Positions 25,227 through 31,913 of a DNA stretch of 64,000 nt are shown in pieces. The position numbers and the translations under genes were made by a program. Below the pieces are notes generated by a model. The model was not told the DNA's origin and did not search any database. It worked only from the letters and a program-made list of their open reading frames with translations. Every line of letters begins with the position of its first letter. The stretch's first letter is position 1. The DNA is from a virus. Its lineage: Duplodnaviria; Caudoviricetes. The stretch is taken from IMG/VR virus record IMGVR_UViG_3300046733_000629, one strand, 5' to 3'.

Positions 25227-26432
25227 TTAGATTGGCATATATCTGAAATCAACAACTGAATTTGCACCTGGTGCTGTTGTGATTGTTAGTGTTGTTCCAT
25301 TTATTGTATATTCTGTTGTTGGTAAAATTGAACCATCAACAATAACTAGAACACTATGTACGCTATGCCCAGCAGGAACTAGATAATCTGTAGTTGTACT
25401 ATCTCCTGTGTATTGACTACTAGTATATATCAAATTTAAATGCTTATTCTCAATACAGTTATTTGGAAATGCTGTAATATTTGCAAAAGAATATCTATAT
25501 TTTACATAAATGTCTGCACCAACATGAGGAGTTACACTAAATGTTAATACTGCACCATTAAGTGAGAACACATCTGGTCTTTGTAATACTTCATCGACAT
25601 AAACATCAATTGCTTCTTCGGTTGCTGGAGTACTATTTAAGGTAAAATCTACTTGTATTCCATCACCTGTAAATTCTTGTGCTGGTTCAATACTTGTAGA
25701 AGGTAATGCTAAATCATTTCTTAGTAAGTTTTCTAAGTTTGTTAATTCTGTACTTGTAGCAAACGCTGTATCTGCATTTTGAAACGCATTAACAATTTCT
25801 GTTAATGAGTCAAGTGCGGCAGGATCTGTATTTGTTAATATGTCTGCTACTTGTGTCTGTAGTGTAGCAATGTCACTATTAATATTAGCAACAACATTTG
25901 GATCACTAACACCAAATTGCCCTGTGTAGACTGCACCACTTATATAAACACTTTTTCCTGTAAAGTCTTTTCCATCTGGTAAGTTATCACCAATAAAGTT
26001 TAATACACCTGATTGATAATCAAAGAACCATTCATCATTATTACCACTACCAGTAACAAATACTTTATTTGCTAAACTTTCTGCATTAGCTGAATCATTG
26101 CTATCATGAATATAAACACTAACAAGATATGTACTACCAAATTCTGGAGTAACCCAATCAGTAACTCCTGTTTTCCAAGTTCGTTTACCTGTTGCTGTAA
26201 TATCTTCAGTTGCTTCAACTGCTGAGTATATGGTTAATACACCCGCTGATGTTGTTGGTTTAACACTTGGTATATCACCAGATTCTGCCCATACTTTATC
26301 ACCACGTAATAAAAGTGGACTTGGAATACTTTCATTGGCCGCTAATTTATTAAATATGGTATCTGTTTTAGTTGCACCATATCCTAACTTTTTAAATAGG
26401 TAGTCAATTTTTTGATTGTCGGAAATAGCCAT
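25227..26432 (-). CDS. Virion structural protein
   Basis: NTDPAALDSLTEIV knot plus two (F/Y)TGD...V.VD beta modules of the type also seen near the giant fibre C-terminus. Confidence 0.7.
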   Translation of the reverse strand: MAISDNQKIDYLFKKLGYGATKTDTIFNKLAANESIPSPLLLRGDKVWAESGDIPSVKPTTSAGVLTIYSAVEATEDITATGKRTWKTGVTDWVTPEFGSTYLVSVYIHDSNDSANAESLANKVFVTGSGNNDEWFFDYQSGVLNFIGDNLPDGKDFTGKSVYISGAVYTGQFGVSDPNVVANINSDIATLQTQVADILTNTDPAALDSLTEIVNAFQNADTAFATSTELTNLENLLRNDLALPSTSIEPAQEFTGDGIQVDFTLNSTPATEEAIDVYVDEVLQRPDVFSLNGAVLTFSVTPHVGADIYVKYRYSFANITAFPNNCIENKHLNLIYTSSQYTGDSTTTDYLVPAGHSVHSVLVIVDGSILPTTEYTINGTTLTITTAPGANSVVDFRYMPI

Positions 26433-29400
26433 TAACTAGCTTCTCCTATTTGCAAGTTTGTTATTTCTTGACCACTCGTAAGTGCTATTCTAACTAACAC
26501 AACATTATTAGTTGCATTACTCATATTTTCACTACCTAAAGTCATTGTATAACTATTATCGTTTATTGTACTGTTTGTAGGAATAACATCTGCGCCTGTT
26601 AATGCACAACCGTCAGCACCGTTACCTCCTGTTCCAGTATTACTACCAGGAACACCTACACCTGCATATTGACTTGTACCTTCTAGCCAACCACTTAATC
26701 CACTTGCAGTATCTATACCAGTACCAGGAGATGCAATCCACATACCTGCAATACCATTAGGAGCTGTAAGTCTAATATCAAAGTTAGCAACAACCTGTCT
26801 TTGGAAAGCAAAAGTAAAATATTGTGTTCCAGTATCAGCACTTCTATCTGGACCAACTGGTAAAAATCCTGTGCTATAGTTTGTTGTATTGTGTTCTAAT
26901 TGTCCCCAACGTACTGTTGCTTCTTGTGTTCCACTTACTGCTATTGCACCAGTGAACGGTGTTGCCATATAATCAATAACACTATTAATAGTAGGGGTAT
27001 TTGTATTACCATATGCTACAAAGTCTGCAATACGTATTGCATTGTTTGTGATTACTCCATTACCTAGTGTTGTTGCTACTGGTATATCGTCTTCTATTAC
27101 ACCGCTAGGATTAGCTGTATGTACCTGTACAGAGGTGTTTGTTAGTTCTACATAGTTAGAGCTACCATTAACATTATTTGCTTTAAATTTAAGCGTTTCT
27201 ACTGCCGCTATATTGGATGTAGTAATGTTAATAAGTTGATCTGCTATATTATATGGAGCTGTAAATCCTGTGTTTGAGTTTGGTATACCATTTGTTAAGT
27301 ATGGTGTTGTTCCACTTTCAAGTTCTGCATAGTCTTTGTACTGTGTACTAATTGTTGCACCACTTGTTCCTTCTGAGTTAGTTCCATTAGAAATTTCAAA
27401 TACATTATTTGTATCTCTATATGCTTGACCAATCCAGTCAGTAAGCAGTGCACCAGTTAGTACCAACTGTGGACCACCGGTGTTATAATATGGAATTCCA
27501 GATATGTATCTGTACGTTCCAGGATTATTCTCTGAGAGGATAGAACCAGCAAGGTCAATAGTAGGAACGTTAGTTAAGTCATCACAAATAACTGTTACGT
27601 AATTAGTATTTCCTGTTTCTGTATGCTCTATCCTCTGATCATTTACACCTAGTGAGTATCCACTGAAGTTGTTAGTAATCTTTGAATCAAATGTTTGGTA
27701 AAATCCTGTAGGATAAGTTGACGAACTAATTGTATTATTTGCATCATCTTGTCCACTAATAACTAAGCTACCAAATGTACCGTTTTCGTTTAGGGAAGTA
27801 GTAAAAGATTTTGATCCGCTTGATACTCCGTTAATAATTGCACTAGCTTCTCCACTTAATCCATTATAAGAATTTTGTGCAATTGTTGTGTCAATTGTAC
27901 CATTTGTGTATCTTCTTGCTGTATATGTATCTAAGTCATCACCTGCTGTTAAAGGAGATGTTGAACTATTATCTATAAAGCCGTTAGCTAATTTTGGATC
28001 TATACCTTGCCAAGGGTCTGTTAGTTGAATTGTTTTAGATCCTAATCCTTGTGGAGCTGCTGGTACTGCATTAACTTGGAAAGTTAAACTAGCTGTATCT
28101 GTTTGTGCAGTTATATCCGGTGTTCCACTTGCTGTAAAGTCTAATGTATAATTACCCGGTGCTACTCCTGTAAAGTCATGTTGTACGCTGTTTAGTCCTG
28201 CTTCAACATCATTTGAACTACTGTCATTCCAATTGTATTCGTGACTGTCTCCATTTTGAGTTGTATTGTTTACAGTAACTAATGCTCTGTTTACACCATT
28301 ATAATCTACGCTATCATATACATCGTAAATGTTATCGCCATTGCGATCTGAAACTGTGTTTGCACTACCTGAGATGTTTGCTCTAACATCTGGTTCAACA
28401 TGTATTGTAAATGGTGAACTAGTAAATGGACTGTTTGTGTGTGAACTGATTACTTTTAAGTTTCCTGTGTAATCTCTAGCTACGCCATTTGCTTGGTCTG
28501 AAGCTGATAATGTATATTTGTGATTTATTGTAGTTCCTTGGTCTCCTGAATTTCCAGACCCAGAATTTACTGTTTGAATACTTCCATCACCAAAGTCCCA
28601 TTCATATGTTATTCCATAGTTGTTATAACTTCCTACAGTTGCTTCTGTATTATTTGTAAATGTTACGTTTAATCCATTAACTGAATCTTCATTAATACCT
28701 GTTGTTATATCAGATGTTGTATCTGGTGTATGTGTATCATAAATTTTAAATGATGCTGTATCATCTAATGGTAATATACCTGGTGTTGCTGAACTATGTA
28801 CATCTAGTGTTAGTGTTACGTTACGAGTAACATCAATTTCTGTGCCGGGCTGGAATGTGTGAGCTATTCTAGCACCGGCACTACCACCTGTGACTGTGTC
28901 GTCATTAATAACATCATCTGCAAGACCGTCACCCCAGGACCAAGTATATTGGACTGTTGCCGCGGTTGCATTTGTTGTAGTATTTTGGAAGTAGACAGTA
29001 TCACCGTCATTCCAAGTGGTAATCTGATTTCCGCCTGTAAGTGAATCCCATGCTTGAAAACTTACTGCTGGGTCGGCGGTAAAAATTGTTATATAATCTT
29101 CTTTTGTTTTGCTTATAGTGCTACCTGCACCAGTACCATTATTATTAAATGCTGTTACTGCTACATCAAAAGGAGATCCTGAATTTGTTGCGTATGTATG
29201 TGTAGGTGTGCTGTCGGTTGTCGCTGTAGTTGTATTTCCATCTCCCCAACTAATAGTATATCTATTTGGGTTACCTTCTGTACTAATAACTAGAGTTGTT
29301 GTTAAGCCTGCTCCACCTGTTGTTATGTTTGCGTTAAAATCAATAGACTTAACATAAGTATTATTTCTTACGTTTTCAATTGTTTCATAAACATCTGTTA

Positions 29401-29617
29401 GATCAGCTGTAAGTTCGCTATCTTGATTAGAATCAAAATTAGCTATCTGAGCTTCAAGGTATGCTTTTGTAACTAGATCTTGTGGATCAACTGGATCACT
29501 AGCATTTTTAACTATCTTAGTTGAAACATCAATATTACTTAATGCATTTGAATCTAGTACTAAATCAGACGATTCTGATGTAATTTTTCCTATGCTGTGA
29601 TTAATATTAATCGCCAA
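26432..29617 (-). CDS. PKD-domain virion surface protein (TTG start)
   Basis: Repeated W(G/D)DG PKD motifs (YTISWGDG, YTWSWGDG, YEWDFGDG); late promoter TAAATA 29657-29662. Confidence 0.75.
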   Translation of the reverse strand: MAININHSIGKITSESSDLVLDSNALSNIDVSTKIVKNASDPVDPQDLVTKAYLEAQIANFDSNQDSELTADLTDVYETIENVRNNTYVKSIDFNANITTGGAGLTTTLVISTEGNPNRYTISWGDGNTTTATTDSTPTHTYATNSGSPFDVAVTAFNNNGTGAGSTISKTKEDYITIFTADPAVSFQAWDSLTGGNQITTWNDGDTVYFQNTTTNATAATVQYTWSWGDGLADDVINDDTVTGGSAGARIAHTFQPGTEIDVTRNVTLTLDVHSSATPGILPLDDTASFKIYDTHTPDTTSDITTGINEDSVNGLNVTFTNNTEATVGSYNNYGITYEWDFGDGSIQTVNSGSGNSGDQGTTINHKYTLSASDQANGVARDYTGNLKVISSHTNSPFTSSPFTIHVEPDVRANISGSANTVSDRNGDNIYDVYDSVDYNGVNRALVTVNNTTQNGDSHEYNWNDSSSNDVEAGLNSVQHDFTGVAPGNYTLDFTASGTPDITAQTDTASLTFQVNAVPAAPQGLGSKTIQLTDPWQGIDPKLANGFIDNSSTSPLTAGDDLDTYTARRYTNGTIDTTIAQNSYNGLSGEASAIINGVSSGSKSFTTSLNENGTFGSLVISGQDDANNTISSSTYPTGFYQTFDSKITNNFSGYSLGVNDQRIEHTETGNTNYVTVICDDLTNVPTIDLAGSILSENNPGTYRYISGIPYYNTGGPQLVLTGALLTDWIGQAYRDTNNVFEISNGTNSEGTSGATISTQYKDYAELESGTTPYLTNGIPNSNTGFTAPYNIADQLINITTSNIAAVETLKFKANNVNGSSNYVELTNTSVQVHTANPSGVIEDDIPVATTLGNGVITNNAIRIADFVAYGNTNTPTINSVIDYMATPFTGAIAVSGTQEATVRWGQLEHNTTNYSTGFLPVGPDRSADTGTQYFTFAFQRQVVANFDIRLTAPNGIAGMWIASPGTGIDTASGLSGWLEGTSQYAGVGVPGSNTGTGGNGADGCALTGADVIPTNSTINDNSYTMTLGSENMSNATNNVVLVRIALTSGQEITNLQIGEAS

Positions 29618-29670
29618 TTTCTATACCTCAATTCTTCTTCGCTCTTGCGTATATTGTATTTACTTTTTTT

Positions 29671-29814
29671 TTAATCTAACAATATAGAAAGTGTAGAGAA
29701 ACGATTATCAGTGTATAAAATGTTTTGATGCATAGAGTTAAAAGACGTTCTTAAAACGCCTTCTTTGTTCTCTATAGCTTTTACTCCAAAATCTGGGTTA
29801 AAATGTGATGACAT
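29671..29814 (-). CDS. Putative 47-aa small protein (MSSHFNPDFGVKAIENK...), not in ORF track
   Basis: Follows late promoter 29851-29857; AGGA 8 nt upstream of the ATG. Confidence 0.4.
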   Translation of the reverse strand: MSSHFNPDFGVKAIENKEGVLRTSFNSMHQNILYTDNRFSTLSILLD

Positions 29815-29867
29815 AACTCGACTTCCTACTACTTCCTATTATTATACATGTATTTATCAAATAGAAG

Positions 29868-29896
29868 TCAAAAGAAAAGACGCCGAAGCGTCTTTT
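29868..29896 (-). terminator. Intrinsic terminator with UUCG loop
   Basis: AAAAGACGC-TTCG-GCGTCTTTT-CTTTT. Confidence 0.9.
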
Positions 29897-29902
29897 CAAA
29901 AT

Positions 29903-30119
29903 ACAAGCAAAATAGGGAGGATTAGGGTTTACCTCCAACTCCTCGACAAGATACCATTCTATATCCAGAGAGCCTGTTTCCGTTCGGTAGAACGATGTGA
30001 CTCAGCGTATTTCTACTACCAAGCCTGGGTACCACCCCTAAACAGCCAAGTTCGACAGTCTGGTTACTGCCTCTTCCTTGCACTATAAACATTGAGCCGC
30101 TAAACTCTTTGTTGCTTAT
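29903..30119 (-). ncRNA. Unassigned ~217-nt structured RNA
   Basis: Own promoter and terminator; 5'/3' closing helix AUAAGCAA/UUGCUUGU; at least six internal hairpins. Confidence 0.75.
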
Positions 30120-30125
30120 GTACTT

Positions 30126-30154
30126 AATATATAACGTTTTGATCAAAAGGTCAA
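30126..30154 (-). promoter_or_regulatory. Sigma70-type promoter for the ncRNA
   Basis: ggTTGACC-17bp-TATATT; predicted +1 at A30119. Confidence 0.8.
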
Positions 30155-30173
30155 CCTTTTTTTTTAAAAAAGA

Positions 30174-30326
30174 TTAAATTTTTTGTAGTCTTGGATCTGA
30201 ACTTAGTATGTTTTTCTGAGCACGTGGTCTAGACAAAGGTCTTTCCATTTGTCTTCTATGCAATGCTTTATGTGCTTGCTTAGTACGCTCTTTTTTACGA
30301 GCTAGTTCGAAGTCTCTGTGATTCAT
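30174..30326 (-). CDS. 50-aa Arg/Lys-rich protein (MNHRDFELARKKERTKQAHK...), not in ORF track
   Basis: AAGGAG RBS; late promoter at 30401-30407. Confidence 0.7.
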   Translation of the reverse strand: MNHRDFELARKKERTKQAHKALHRRQMERPLSRPRAQKNILSSDPRLQKI

Positions 30327-30352
30327 AACACTCTCCTTTTTACAGTTAAGTG

Positions 30353-30394
30353 CGTTCCTTCGCTATTGCTACTTCCGTCCCATTGGGATGAACG
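30353..30394 (-). ncRNA. Compact structured leader RNA (three-way junction)
   Basis: CGUUC/GAACG closing helix, UCCC-AAU-GGGA hairpin, GGAAGUA linker; begins near the predicted late +1. Confidence 0.55.
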
Positions 30395-30413
30395 TATTAT
30401 TATTTATCTAAAT

Positions 30414-30487
30414 TGGCATGAGTGAAAGGAATCGAACCCTCATTTGCGGAGTTGGAAGCCGCCGTGTTACCATTACACTACACTCAC
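30414..30487 (-). tRNA. trnW: tRNA-Trp (CCA) with encoded 3' CCA
   Basis: Cloverleaf GTGAGTG/CACTCAT, D arm GTGT/ACAC, T loop TTCGATT, anticodon loop TT-CCA-AC, discriminator G73. Confidence 0.85.
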
Positions 30488-30524
30488 AAAAAAAGCCCCT
30501 AATAAAATTAATTACTAGGGGCTT
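30488..30524 (-). terminator. Strong terminator abutting the tRNA 5' end
   Basis: AAGCCCCTA/TAGGGGCTT stem; the T7 run is directly followed by tRNA G1. Confidence 0.8.
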
Positions 30525-30749: not shown

Positions 30750-31913
30750 TTATGAGAATGAAAGGTTACCAGCGTTAACACCAATTTTAGCTAGGTAGTC
30801 AGCTGCGTTACCAAGAGATGAAGCTTGGTTGTTTAGCTCTACATAACCGTAACGTGTCATGAATGACACTGTTGGTTCGAATGTTGCTGGATCAAGTACT
30901 GTGCCTGAAGACATTAGTGGGATGTATGGGCAATAGAATGCTGCCGCATCAATTTCACCGTCGCCTTTGTAGCCAACTAGTACTGGAGCATCGTCTGCTG
31001 CATACTGATCTACAAACACTCTCATAGTGTTATTTAAAGTTCCAACAAATTTAGTGTTAGTTGGTGCTTCAAAAGGACCTTCAGTTGTTCTTGCGAATGC
31101 TGAAGTTGTCGCTGATTGTAGTACTGTTAACATTGTTGGTGAGATAACAACGTAGTTACCTGCGCCACGTCTTGTACGTGTAGCGATTAGGTTAGCTGCT
31201 CTGTTAATTAGAACTGCTAGTGCCGCATGTTGGTCTCCAACGAAAGTTGCTTGACCTGATACGTTACCTTGATCGTATGTGTCTGTGGCTGCGCCTGCTA
31301 GTGTACGTAGTGAAGTAAGAACTTCTTGGTCAATCTCAGCAGTAATTTCTTGTGCAAGTGCTTGCATGATTTCTGCTTCAACGTCTAGACCGTGCATTGA
31401 ATTAGCATCTTGTGCTGCTTCAAAAGTCCAACGTGCTGATAATTTACGTGTTTTAGCTTCAACAGTTTGTTTCAATACTTGGATTGAAAGTTTACGACCT
31501 GCTTCTGCTTCTAGAGCTGAAGTTGAAGTCGGTCCACCTGTTGATGCGTCACCTGAGTAACCTTTTGCAATTGCAAATGGTGATAGTGCTTCGTCACCAG
31601 CTGTTACGCCAGCTGCTGTTTGGCCATATCTTACTCTTAGTGTGTGGATTTGTCCTACTGGACCTGTCATAGGTTGTACACCTACTAGTTCGTTCGCGAT
31701 AACTGTTGGCATAACACGACGAATAACTGGTAGAATCACTTTGTTAAGTGATGCAACGTTACCTGCCATTGTTGTACCTGCGGTTGCTGATTCTGAAAGA
31801 TAGTTTCTTGTGTTTTCAAGAACTGATTCCATAACAACCTTTTTGTTACCATTTAAACCATCTGTAAGGGCGTCTTTTGTTACGTCCCAATTTTCAAATA
31901 GATTCTGTGTCAT
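30750..31913 (-). CDS. gp23: Major capsid protein (gp23-like)
   Basis: ILPVIRRVMPTVIANELVGVQPMTGPVGQI, VEAKTRKLSARWTFE, AFYCPYIPL, FMTRYG. Confidence 0.97.
   Translation of the reverse strand: MTQNLFENWDVTKDALTDGLNGNKKVVMESVLENTRNYLSESATAGTTMAGNVASLNKVILPVIRRVMPTVIANELVGVQPMTGPVGQIHTLRVRYGQTAAGVTAGDEALSPFAIAKGYSGDASTGGPTSTSALEAEAGRKLSIQVLKQTVEAKTRKLSARWTFEAAQDANSMHGLDVEAEIMQALAQEITAEIDQEVLTSLRTLAGAATDTYDQGNVSGQATFVGDQHAALAVLINRAANLIATRTRRGAGNYVVISPTMLTVLQSATTSAFARTTEGPFEAPTNTKFVGTLNNTMRVFVDQYAADDAPVLVGYKGDGEIDAAAFYCPYIPLMSSGTVLDPATFEPTVSFMTRYGYVELNNQASSLGNAADYLAKIGVNAGNLSFS

What the first reader, a model, noticed from the sequence alone, without database searches (positions are those of the whole stretch)
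29868..30154. Independently transcribed ~217-nt structured RNA of unknown family
The predicted +1 of a TTGACC-17-TATATT promoter (A30119) is the first base of a helix closing on the 3' end (AUAAGCAA/UUGCUUGU), and a UUCG terminator follows. Inside are GAGUU/GGCUC, GGCAG/CUGUC, CUUGG..GUA-GAAA-UAC..CUGAG, CGUUC-UACC-GAACG, GAUAU/GUAUC, GGAGG/CCUCC and a long-range GGCUGUUU/AAACAG(G)CU. Imperfect pairs are G-U on this strand (A-C on the other), which argues for RNA-level selection. Short stretches (AGUGCAA, GGUAAACCC, ACGGAAACAGGCU) echo RNase P conserved regions but in the wrong order, so a tRNA-binding or decoy role is only speculation.
Basis: partly seen in the sequence, partly recalled or inferred. 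Interest (0 to 1): 0.85.

Follow-up and report, generated by a model that had tools for sequence, protein, structure and literature searches.

The report
Free-standing manA-family RNA gene in phage
The flagged stretch is a real folded RNA gene with its own promoter and terminator in a marine T4-like phage, but it belongs to the known manA RNA family (shown in a 2026 preprint to form RNA cages in vitro), and its layout argues that it is a free RNA product, not the gene-leader switch it is catalogued as.

Summary
On the minus strand, a TTGACC-17-TATATT promoter (30154-30126) is followed by a 217-nt RNA (30119-29903), then an intrinsic terminator (29897-29874).

The "unknown family" reading does not hold. 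The RNA matches Rfam manA (RF01745) over the full model at 52.1 bits, E 2e-10. That is 3 bits under the cut-off, which is why the default scan missed it. Its homologue in Pelagibacter phage Mosig scores 64 bits.

In 59 diverse homologues, 51 of 77 base pairs show compensatory changes, including a new outer helix joining the two RNA ends.

Among 139 homologues:
- all carry a sigma70-type promoter 5-6 nt upstream of the RNA;
- 99 carry a terminator 4-9 nt downstream, with 52 unrelated hairpin sequences (random windows: 15 of 414);
- no antiterminator alternative is detectable.

Best reading: this is a stand-alone phage ncRNA, not a cis-regulator. It probably self-assembles through loop-loop pairing, as manA RNAs do in a 2026 cryo-EM preprint. 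The biological role is unknown.

This scan reached the same reading before on other DNA (e1-5323103, e1-5319818, e1-5320153). I class it as a new member of a known kind, of moderate interest.

The parts
30126..30154 (-). Sigma70-type promoter: -35 TTGACC (30154-30149), 17-nt spacer, -10 TATATT (30131-30126). RNA base 1 (A30119) lies 7 nt after the -10.
   Evidence: One search gives the scan hit; 121 of 139 homologues have TTGAC[T/A/C]-16/17-TATAnT, and the other 18 have TTGCTT with TGTTATATT. The gap from the -10 to the first RNA base is 5-6 nt in 108 of 121.
29903..30119 (-). 217-nt manA-family RNA. With RNA position i = 30120 - coordinate, the helices are: P0 1-7/211-217; P1 hairpin 8-31; P2 34-37/205-208; P3 40-43/70-73 plus 49-54/61-66; P4 74-80/141-148; P5 82-84/91-93; P6 95-106/111-121 (GAAA loop); P7 125-129/136-140; P8 149-154/175-180 plus 160-162/169-171; P9 184-188/200-204.
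   Evidence: Across the 59-sequence alignment, 88% of cells are paired against 36-51% when the partners are slid. 51 of 77 pairs carry compensatory changes against 18-28 when slid.
29906..30104 (-). Stretch matched by the Rfam manA model RF01745, model positions 1-192 of 192.
   Evidence: 52.1 bits against a gathering score of 55.2; E 2.8e-12 for the region and 2e-10 for the whole window.
29868..29897 (-). Intrinsic terminator GAAAAGACGC-UUCG-GCGUCUUUUC followed by a U tract. It starts 5 nt after the RNA's 3' end.
   Evidence: for the window; 99 of 139 homologues have a terminator starting 4-9 nt after the RNA, with 52 distinct hairpin sequences, against 15 of 414 random windows; no competing antiterminator.
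29851..29858 (-). GATAAATA, resembling the T4-type late promoter TATAAATA. It would drive the downstream 47-aa ORF (29671-29814) and the 1061-aa structural gene (26432-29617) independently of the RNA.
   Evidence: for the sequence; the GATAAATA stretch is conserved. ATAAATA follows the terminator in 63 of 99 homologues. That it acts as a late promoter is inferred from the T4 consensus.
30174..30396 (-). Upstream neighbour, for context only: glutamine riboswitch aptamer (30349-30396) and a 50-aa basic ORF (30174-30326). This pair recurs upstream of the RNA.
   Evidence: RF01739 at 53.3 bits; the same small ORF lies upstream in 32 related loci, plus 9 with a related ORF; the riboswitch is present in 5 of 13 sampled loci.
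30414..30487 (-). tRNA-Trp (CCA), about 295 nt upstream. Context only.

Best explanation
This is a divergent member of the manA RNA family (Rfam RF01745) encoded as a free-standing gene in a marine T4-like phage.

Proposed sequence of events:
1. Host sigma70 RNA polymerase starts at A30119, directly behind a near-consensus promoter. This is inferred; such promoters are the early class in T4-like phages.
2. The first 7 nt pair with the last 7 nt of the RNA. This outer helix P0 is not in the Rfam model.
3. Inside P0 the RNA folds into the manA architecture: a 5' hairpin, a closing stem, and two multi-helix domains.
4. A strong intrinsic terminator 5 nt downstream releases a discrete transcript of about 250 nt. 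The downstream structural genes have their own late-type promoter.

The RNA therefore acts as a product in trans, not as a leader switch.

By homology with the manA RNAs solved by cryo-EM, its complementary loops most likely join copies into pentamer-based particles. The loops are L5 GUGGUA with L7 CUACCG, and L8 AUGGUA with L9 AACCC, plus a GAAA loop on P6. What the particle does in the infected cell is unknown.

Status of the claims:
- Shown here: family membership, fold, conserved promoter, conserved terminator, and absence of an antiterminator.
- Inferred: early timing, discrete RNA ends in vivo, and oligomerisation.
For: Family. The match to RF01745 is full-length at 52.1 bits, E 2e-10. 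The 80%-identical copy in Pelagibacter phage Mosig scores 64 bits, over the cut-off. Twelve of 13 sampled relatives score 40-62 bits.

Fold. 88% of cells are paired and 51 of 77 pairs carry compensatory changes, against 18-28 in slid controls. P0 has 5 of 7 pairs compensatory. G74-C148 covaries.

Loops. L5-L7 complementarity is kept through changes on both sides: GGUA/UACC, UGUC/GACA, UAU/AUA, UGC/GCA.

Own unit.
- A promoter is present in all 139 homologues at a fixed 5-6 nt from RNA base 1.
- RNA length is constant at 214-220 nt.
- A terminator follows in 99 of 139, with 52 unrelated hairpin sequences, against 3.6% of random windows.
- The module sits in different genomic places: after gp23, and before gp32, CSP, rubrerythrin, peroxiredoxin or a mannose-6-P-isomerase-like gene. 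Seven of 7 copies in front of the isomerase-like gene still carry a terminator.
- A late-promoter-like ATAAATA follows the terminator.

No switch platform. The terminator coexists with the full fold in the MFE structure. Forbidding the terminator costs as much as the hairpin itself, with a median ratio of 1.11.

RNA libraries. Separate contigs of 206-243 nt cover just this RNA in 3 metatranscriptome runs from 2 studies.

Literature. In vitro, manA RNAs form decamers and a 60-mer cage through L5-L7' and L8-L9' kissing loops (bioRxiv 10.64898/2026.07.01.735769).
Against: - The Rfam score is under the curated cut-off.
- Forty of 139 homologues lack a terminator and run into a gene, either directly into an RBS and ATG (rubrerythrin in Mosig, peroxiredoxin) or via a late promoter (gp32). 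A leader role in some genomes is therefore not excluded.
- The RNA-library evidence is from assembled contigs. Their ends coincide with the borders of sequence conservation, so they do not prove transcript ends. One contig reaches 22 nt upstream of the predicted start. A run with deep gp23 coverage shows no contig for the RNA.
- L8-L9 pairing rests on an invariant GG/CC core and cannot be tested by covariation.
- Covariation cannot tell intramolecular pseudoknots from intermolecular kissing.
- Oligomerisation has been shown only in vitro, for other family members.
Confidence: 0.7

Rival explanations
1. This is a classical cis-acting riboswitch or attenuator. The manA fold would bind a ligand and tune read-through of the terminator into the downstream 47-aa ORF and structural gene.
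For: Rfam and Weinberg 2010 class manA as cis-regulatory and a riboswitch candidate. The RNA lies upstream of genes on the same strand. Forty of 139 homologues have no terminator and lead straight into a gene. A complex, conserved junction-rich fold is typical of aptamers.
Against: - The terminator starts after the closed P0 helix and shares no nucleotides with the fold.
- Terminator stems are unrelated in sequence (52 kinds) while the RNA's 3' end is conserved, so no conserved antiterminator pairing can exist.
- Removing the terminator is not compensated by any alternative structure.
- The downstream genes carry their own late-type promoter.
- Downstream genes are functionally unrelated: tail-like protein, gp32, CSP, rubrerythrin, peroxiredoxin, isomerase.
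- Classic manA copies abut tRNA genes.
Confidence: 0.12
2. This is a cis-acting 5' leader with no ligand. It would be a stabilising or processing module attached to a strong portable promoter, and the terminated copies would be decaying or neutral.
For: The promoter and RNA travel together to many genomic sites, and in a minority of loci they drive real genes.
Against: The terminated form is the majority at 71%. It occurs across the full diversity of the clade with many independent terminator sequences, which implies selection for termination. About 50 covarying pairs and invariant loops are far more structure than a stabiliser needs.
Confidence: 0.1
3. This is a tRNA-related decoy or an RNase P-like RNA.
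For: A tRNA-Trp lies 295 nt upstream. Classic manA copies sit directly beside tRNA genes in some cyanophage contigs.
Against: No match to RNase P, tRNA-like or tmRNA models appears in the stretch even at E <= 10. Only 4 of 138 homologues of this clade have a tRNA gene within 600 nt.
Confidence: 0.05
4. The stretch is protein-coding, through the 74-aa ORF 29922-30146 (minus strand) or the 107-aa ORF 29765-30088 (plus strand).
For: Both ORFs exist mechanically.
Against: - Homologues differ by indels that are not multiples of three (lengths 214-220 nt).
- The longest stop-free stretch has a median of 57 aa and a minimum of 36, out of about 72 possible.
- Substitutions are compensatory in helices.
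- The stretch matches an RNA family.
Confidence: 0.01

Closest known systems
manA RNA motif (Rfam RF01745; Weinberg et al. 2010, PMC2864571), classic cyanophage form, e.g. Prochlorococcus phage P-SSM2 142837-143034 (181.6 bits)
   Same: - The order of helices is the same over the whole model (positions 1-192).
- The GGUGGU-type L5 loop and ACC-type L7 loop are shared, as is the terminal GGUA...AAUCC hairpin next to the closing stem.
- Both occur in marine T4-like phages.
- A sigma70-type promoter lies directly in front: 75 of 98 classic copies by a strict pattern, and P-SSM2 has TTGACA-16-TATAAT.
   Different: - This RNA scores only 52 bits; classic copies score 173-191.
- The internal loop of P3 reads GGAAGA instead of CUGAAUAAACUU.
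- P6 is longer and capped by GAAA.
- An extra outer helix P0 joins the 5' and 3' ends. It is not in the Rfam model.
- A terminator follows in 71% of this clade against 35% of classic copies.
- The phage's capsid protein is closest to those of jumbo phages, not cyanophages.
manA copy of Pelagibacter phage Mosig EXVC030M (MT647606.1, 108164-108371; unannotated in the record)
   Same: It is 80% identical over the core, has the same promoter position (TTGACA-17-TATATT), and keeps the P0 helix. It is the only isolate-phage hit in the phage collection.
   Different: Mosig has no terminator. The RNA runs straight into the RBS and ATG of a rubrerythrin gene. It also sits at a different genome position, near gp32 rather than behind gp23.
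manA RNA assemblies solved by cryo-EM (Ren et al. 2026 preprint, bioRxiv 10.64898/2026.07.01.735769)
   Same: Same Rfam family. The loops named there as intermolecular interfaces are complementary here too: L5-L7', L8-L9' and the L6 GNRA loop. L5-L7 covaries.
   Different: Those are in vitro transcripts of other family members. The preprint still calls manA a putative cis-regulatory element and gives no in vivo or genomic-context data. Nothing has been measured for this clade.
GOLLD and ROOL large ncRNAs of phages and prophages. The comparison rests on my own knowledge of the 2024-2025 cryo-EM literature and was not checked here.
   Same: They are phage-borne, free-standing, ornate RNAs of unknown function that form homo-oligomeric cages and are often found near tRNA genes.
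   Different: There is no sequence or structure homology and no Rfam hit. Those RNAs are 500-800 nt, while this one is 217 nt.

Membership tests
manA RNA motif (Rfam RF01745) | Covariance-model score at or above the curated gathering score (55.2 bits) | tested here: not met
   The window scores 52.1 bits, E 2e-10 for the whole window. The same clade scores 40-64 bits. Mosig and 4 of 13 sampled loci are over the cut-off, so the clade straddles the threshold. Homology itself is not in doubt.
manA RNA motif (Rfam RF01745) | Full-length architecture: 5' hairpin, closing stem, an internal-loop hairpin, a multi-stem domain with three hairpins, then two more hairpins, in that order | tested here: met
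   The match covers model positions 1-192 of 192. Every helix is kept in 59 homologues, and 51 of 77 pairs show compensatory changes.
manA RNA motif (Rfam RF01745) | Loop-loop complementarity: the 'pseudoknots' of Weinberg 2010, which are the L5-L7' and L8-L9' kissing loops in the cryo-EM preprint | tested here: inconclusive
   L5-L7 is kept through double changes (GGUA/UACC, UGUC/GACA, UAU/AUA, UGC/GCA). L8-L9 has an invariant GG/CC core, 80% paired, and is no better than shuffles. Whether the pairing is intra- or intermolecular cannot be told from sequence.
manA RNA motif (Rfam RF01745) | Occurs in marine T4-like phages | tested here: met
   gp20, gp21, gp22-like and gp23 genes flank it. Holders are seawater and viral metagenomes. 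Homologues come from IMG/VR contigs.
manA RNA motif (Rfam RF01745) | Lies in the 5' UTR of a protein-coding gene (the basis of the 'Cis-reg' label) | tested here: not met
   An intrinsic terminator and a late-type promoter separate the RNA from the next gene. The same holds in 99 of 139 homologues.
manA RNA motif (Rfam RF01745) | Homo-oligomerises (pentamer, decamer, 60-mer) | not testable with these tools
   Known only from in vitro cryo-EM of other members.
Riboswitch with a transcription-termination platform | The terminator competes with the aptamer or with an antiterminator through shared nucleotides | tested here: not met
   In 84 of 84 distinct RNA-plus-terminator sequences the MFE structure keeps the terminator, and in 70 it also keeps P0. 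The cost of forbidding the terminator equals the hairpin energy, with a median ratio of 1.11.
RNase P RNA, tRNA-like RNA, SRP, 6S | Match to the family's covariance model | tested here: not met
   No such hit appears in 29600-30500 at E <= 10, nor in the whole window at E <= 0.01.

The most novel reading that the evidence does not exclude
manA-family RNAs are not gene leaders at all. They would be a widespread class of phage-encoded, early-expressed free RNAs that build RNA-only polyhedral particles inside infected marine bacteria. Such a particle could sequester or scaffold a host or phage component. This clade, with its sealed ends (P0) and its own terminator, would be the cleanest natural 'particle subunit gene'.
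Probability: 0.25. Interest if true: 0.85.

Novelty: new member of a known kind. Interest (0 to 1): 0.45.

Why it matters
manA has been an orphan 'riboswitch candidate' since 2010, and in 2026 it became the first natural RNA reported to form an icosahedral cage in vitro. Its biological role is unknown, and it is still described as a 5'-UTR element.

The comparative picture here argues that the cell makes it as a discrete free RNA:
- a fixed promoter;
- sealed 5' and 3' ends;
- terminators of 52 unrelated sequences;
- a portable module found at many genome sites;
- classic copies that abut tRNA genes.

A free RNA is what a cage-forming subunit needs. This points experiments towards trans functions and away from ligand screens.

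The work also shows that Rfam's threshold misses a large clade. More than 200 IMG/VR contigs hold it, and Pelagibacter phage Mosig is a cultivable system that carries a copy.

Tried and rejected
- The default Rfam scan at gathering threshold missed the element. Only the E-value mode showed it.
- Megablast against isolate phages found nothing. The distant mode found only Mosig.
- No whole genome is held for this window.
- S-PM2 and Syn9 carry no manA copy.
- I tested the tRNA-association idea for this clade and dropped it: 4 of 138 copies have a tRNA gene within 600 nt.
- My first register for L8-L9 was wrong (56% paired). The corrected register is 80% paired but shows no covariation.
- My first assignment of C148 to P8 was replaced by G74-C148.
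- The metatranscriptome contigs cannot give true ends.
- I did not build my own covariance model. MAFFT misregisters the variable P1 hairpin, so P1 was checked by folding each sequence instead.

Full report
**What is there**

On the minus strand the window reads, in order:
- gp20 portal, gp21 protease, a scaffold-like gene, and the gp23 capsid gene (30750-31913);
- a terminator;
- tRNA-Trp (30414-30487);
- a glutamine riboswitch aptamer (30349-30396) with a 50-aa basic ORF (30174-30326);
- the flagged element;
- a 47-aa ORF and a 1061-aa structural gene.

The flagged element consists of three pieces:
- a promoter, TTGACC-17-TATATT, at 30154-30126;
- a 217-nt ORF-independent stretch, 30119-29903;
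- a 10-bp GC-rich hairpin with a UUCG loop and a U tract, 29897-29874.

The transcript strand folds far better than shuffles: -81.9 kcal/mol, z = -3.1, 0 of 200 shuffles as stable. The opposite strand gives z = -1.7.

**What it is**

The default Rfam scan lists only the tRNA and the glutamine riboswitch. In E-value mode the stretch 30104-29906 matches the manA RNA model RF01745 over all 192 positions at 52.1 bits. That is 3.1 bits under the gathering score. The E-value is 2.8e-12 for the region and 2e-10 for the whole window. No RNase P, SRP, 6S or tRNA-like model matches.

The only isolate-phage relative is an unannotated stretch of Pelagibacter phage Mosig. It is 80% identical and scores 64 bits, over the cut-off.

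Two exact-pattern scans of IMG/VR returned more than 200 contigs with close homologues. Twelve of 13 sampled loci match manA at 40-62 bits, and four of them are over the cut-off. The element thus belongs to a large clade of the manA family that straddles Rfam's threshold.

**Structure**

I aligned 59 copies that are less than 97% identical to each other and 60-85% identical to the window. Results:
- 88% of cells are standard pairs, against 36-51% when the partners are slid.
- 51 of 77 pairs have compensatory changes, against 18-28 when slid.
- 0 of 500 shuffles reach the observed value on any measure.

The outer helix P0 (RNA positions 1-7 with 211-217) is not part of the Rfam model. It has compensatory changes in 5 of 7 pairs, for example AUAAGC/GCUUAU, AUAAGU/ACUUAU and AAUGC/GCAUU.

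- GAUAU/GUAUC is only 51% paired with no compensation. The conserved pairing there is AGA/UCU around an invariant AUGGUA loop (89% paired, 2 of 3 pairs compensatory).
- The variable 5' hairpin is present in 59 of 59 sequences.

Many conserved pairs are G-U on this strand. They would be A-C on the other strand, so selection acts on the RNA.

**Loops**

L5 (GUGGUA) and L7 (CUACCG) stay complementary through double changes: GGUA/UACC, UGUC/GACA, UAU/AUA and UGC/GCA.

L8 (AUGGUA) and L9 (..AACC..) share an invariant GG/CC core, so covariation cannot test that pairing.

P6 carries a GAAA or GAGA loop in most copies. L3 carries another UACC.

A 2026 preprint (bioRxiv 10.64898/2026.07.01.735769) solved manA RNAs by cryo-EM. 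These very loops form intermolecular kissing contacts (L5-L7', L8-L9', L3-L8' and an L6 GNRA-receptor contact). The contacts build pentamers, decamers and a 60-mer icosahedral cage in vitro. The preprint still calls manA a putative cis-regulatory element and has no in vivo or context data.

**Is it a separate transcription unit?**

Among 139 non-identical homologues with intact flanks:
- All have a sigma70-type promoter. In 121 it reads TTGAC[T/A/C]-16/17-TATAnT. In the other 18 it reads TTGCTT with an extended TGTTATATT. The -10 ends 5-6 nt before RNA base 1 in 108 of the 121.
- RNA length is 214-220 nt throughout.
- 99 have a hairpin (dG <= -6) plus U tract starting 4-9 nt after the RNA. These use 52 different hairpin sequences. 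Random 75-nt windows of the same contigs give 15 of 414. The terminator function is thus conserved while its sequence is not.
- After the terminator, 63 of 99 carry ATAAATA, which resembles the T4 late promoter. In the window this is GATAAATA at 29858-29851. The next gene therefore has its own late signal.

The module sits at different genome sites:
- It lies behind gp23 in 33 loci. In 32 more it lies behind the riboswitch-controlled small ORF, the arrangement seen in the window.
- It lies in front of a tail-like structural gene in 47 loci, 42 of them with a terminator.
- It lies in front of gp32 in 18 loci, none with a terminator.
- It also lies in front of a cold-shock protein, rubrerythrin or peroxiredoxin.
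- It lies in front of a mannose-6-phosphate-isomerase/cytidylyltransferase gene in 7 loci, all with a terminator.

Folding the RNA together with its terminator keeps both in the MFE structure. The terminator is kept in 84 of 84 distinct sequences, and P0 as well in 70. Forbidding the terminator costs as much as the hairpin itself, with a median ratio of 1.11. There is therefore no antiterminator or expression platform.

**RNA libraries**

In three metatranscriptome runs from two studies the RNA appears as its own contig:
- 29901-30106;
- 29899-30141;
- 29905-30122 from a close relative.

These are separate from contigs for the riboswitch ORF and for the downstream gene. The promoter zone and the terminator zone have no coverage.

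This agrees with a discrete RNA but is weak evidence:
- They are assembled contigs at low depth.
- Their ends also coincide with the borders of sequence conservation.
- One contig reaches 22 nt upstream of the predicted start.
- A run with deep gp23 coverage has no contig for the RNA.

**The classic family**

Prochlorococcus phage P-SSM2 has a 181.6-bit copy directly behind TTGACA-16-TATAAT and directly in front of a purine-synthesis ORF.

Of 98 classic copies from IMG/VR:
- 75 have the promoter pattern.
- 34 have a terminator. Mostly this is a conserved hairpin, AGACCUAAGAUGCAAC...GGGCAGAUGGUCU, plus Us.
- Several abut tRNA genes within 5-8 nt.

Even classic manA RNAs are therefore often not leaders of protein-coding genes.

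**Mechanism proposed**

The phage makes a free RNA of 217-250 nt from a host-type, presumably early, promoter. The RNA's ends are sealed by P0 and a terminator hairpin. It acts in trans, most likely as a self-assembling particle.

My confidence by step:
- About 0.9 that it is a manA homologue.
- About 0.75 that it is a discrete free RNA.
- About 0.3 that it forms cages in vivo.

The main rivals are a terminator-controlling riboswitch (0.12) and a ligand-free leader or stabiliser (0.10).

**Novelty**

The family is known, and the cage is known from the preprint. Three things are apparently unpublished: the sub-threshold clade, the P0 helix, and the stand-alone gene organisation.

Three earlier follow-ups of this scan reached the same reading on other DNA (e1-5323103, e1-5319818, e1-5320153). 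I therefore rate it a new member of a known kind, of moderate interest.

Noticed in passing
window 30174-30396 (-): A glutamine riboswitch aptamer (RF01739, 53.3 bits) precedes a 50-aa Arg/Lys-rich ORF. The same pair lies upstream of the manA-like RNA in 32 related contigs, plus 9 with a related ORF. From my own knowledge, glutamine riboswitches in cyanobacteria control small glutamine-synthetase inactivating factors, so this phage peptide may be such a factor. Another first-reader note (e1-5365973) guessed abiF for this leader; the Rfam result says glutamine riboswitch.
   Followed up: partly
L024:3324-3406, L037:156-238, L046:562-644: In some relatives a freshwater-2 RNA (RF02980, 66-69 bits) lies about 60-70 nt downstream of the manA-like RNA, in front of the next gene. 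The window has no such match.
   Followed up: no
L244, L247, L289, L266, L273 and others (classic manA loci), 6-12 nt after the manA RNA: A conserved, roughly 40-nt hairpin (AGACCTAAGATGCAAC ... GGGCAGATGGTCT) followed by a T run sits directly after many classic cyanophage manA RNAs. No Rfam family matches it at gathering score. It may be a conserved terminator or a separate small motif.
   Followed up: partly
L229:2878-2950, L272:1729-1801, L312:3451-3603, L304:4921-5063: Classic manA RNAs (173-191 bits) abut tRNA genes within 5-8 nt on the same strand. This suggests co-transcription and processing as stable RNAs.
   Followed up: partly
L134:2105-2378 (-): An alphaproteobacterial-type (permuted) tmRNA gene (RF01849, 96 bits) lies on a contig that also carries the manA-like RNA. 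Mosig also encodes a tmRNA. This fits a SAR11-type host for part of the clade.
   Followed up: no
window 30750-31913 (-): The gp23 capsid protein is closest (65-71% identity) to those of jumbo phages of Sinorhizobium, Vibrio, Pseudomonas (PA5oct) and Erwinia, not to cyanophage or pelagiphage capsids. The manA-like RNA therefore occurs well outside cyanophages.
   Followed up: partly
window 29671-29814 and 26432-29617 (-): The 47-aa ORF starts like the 200-aa proteins found downstream in related loci (MSSH.NPD...). It is followed after a short gap by a 1061-aa structural ORF with a TTG start. This could be a split or mis-started gene.
   Followed up: no
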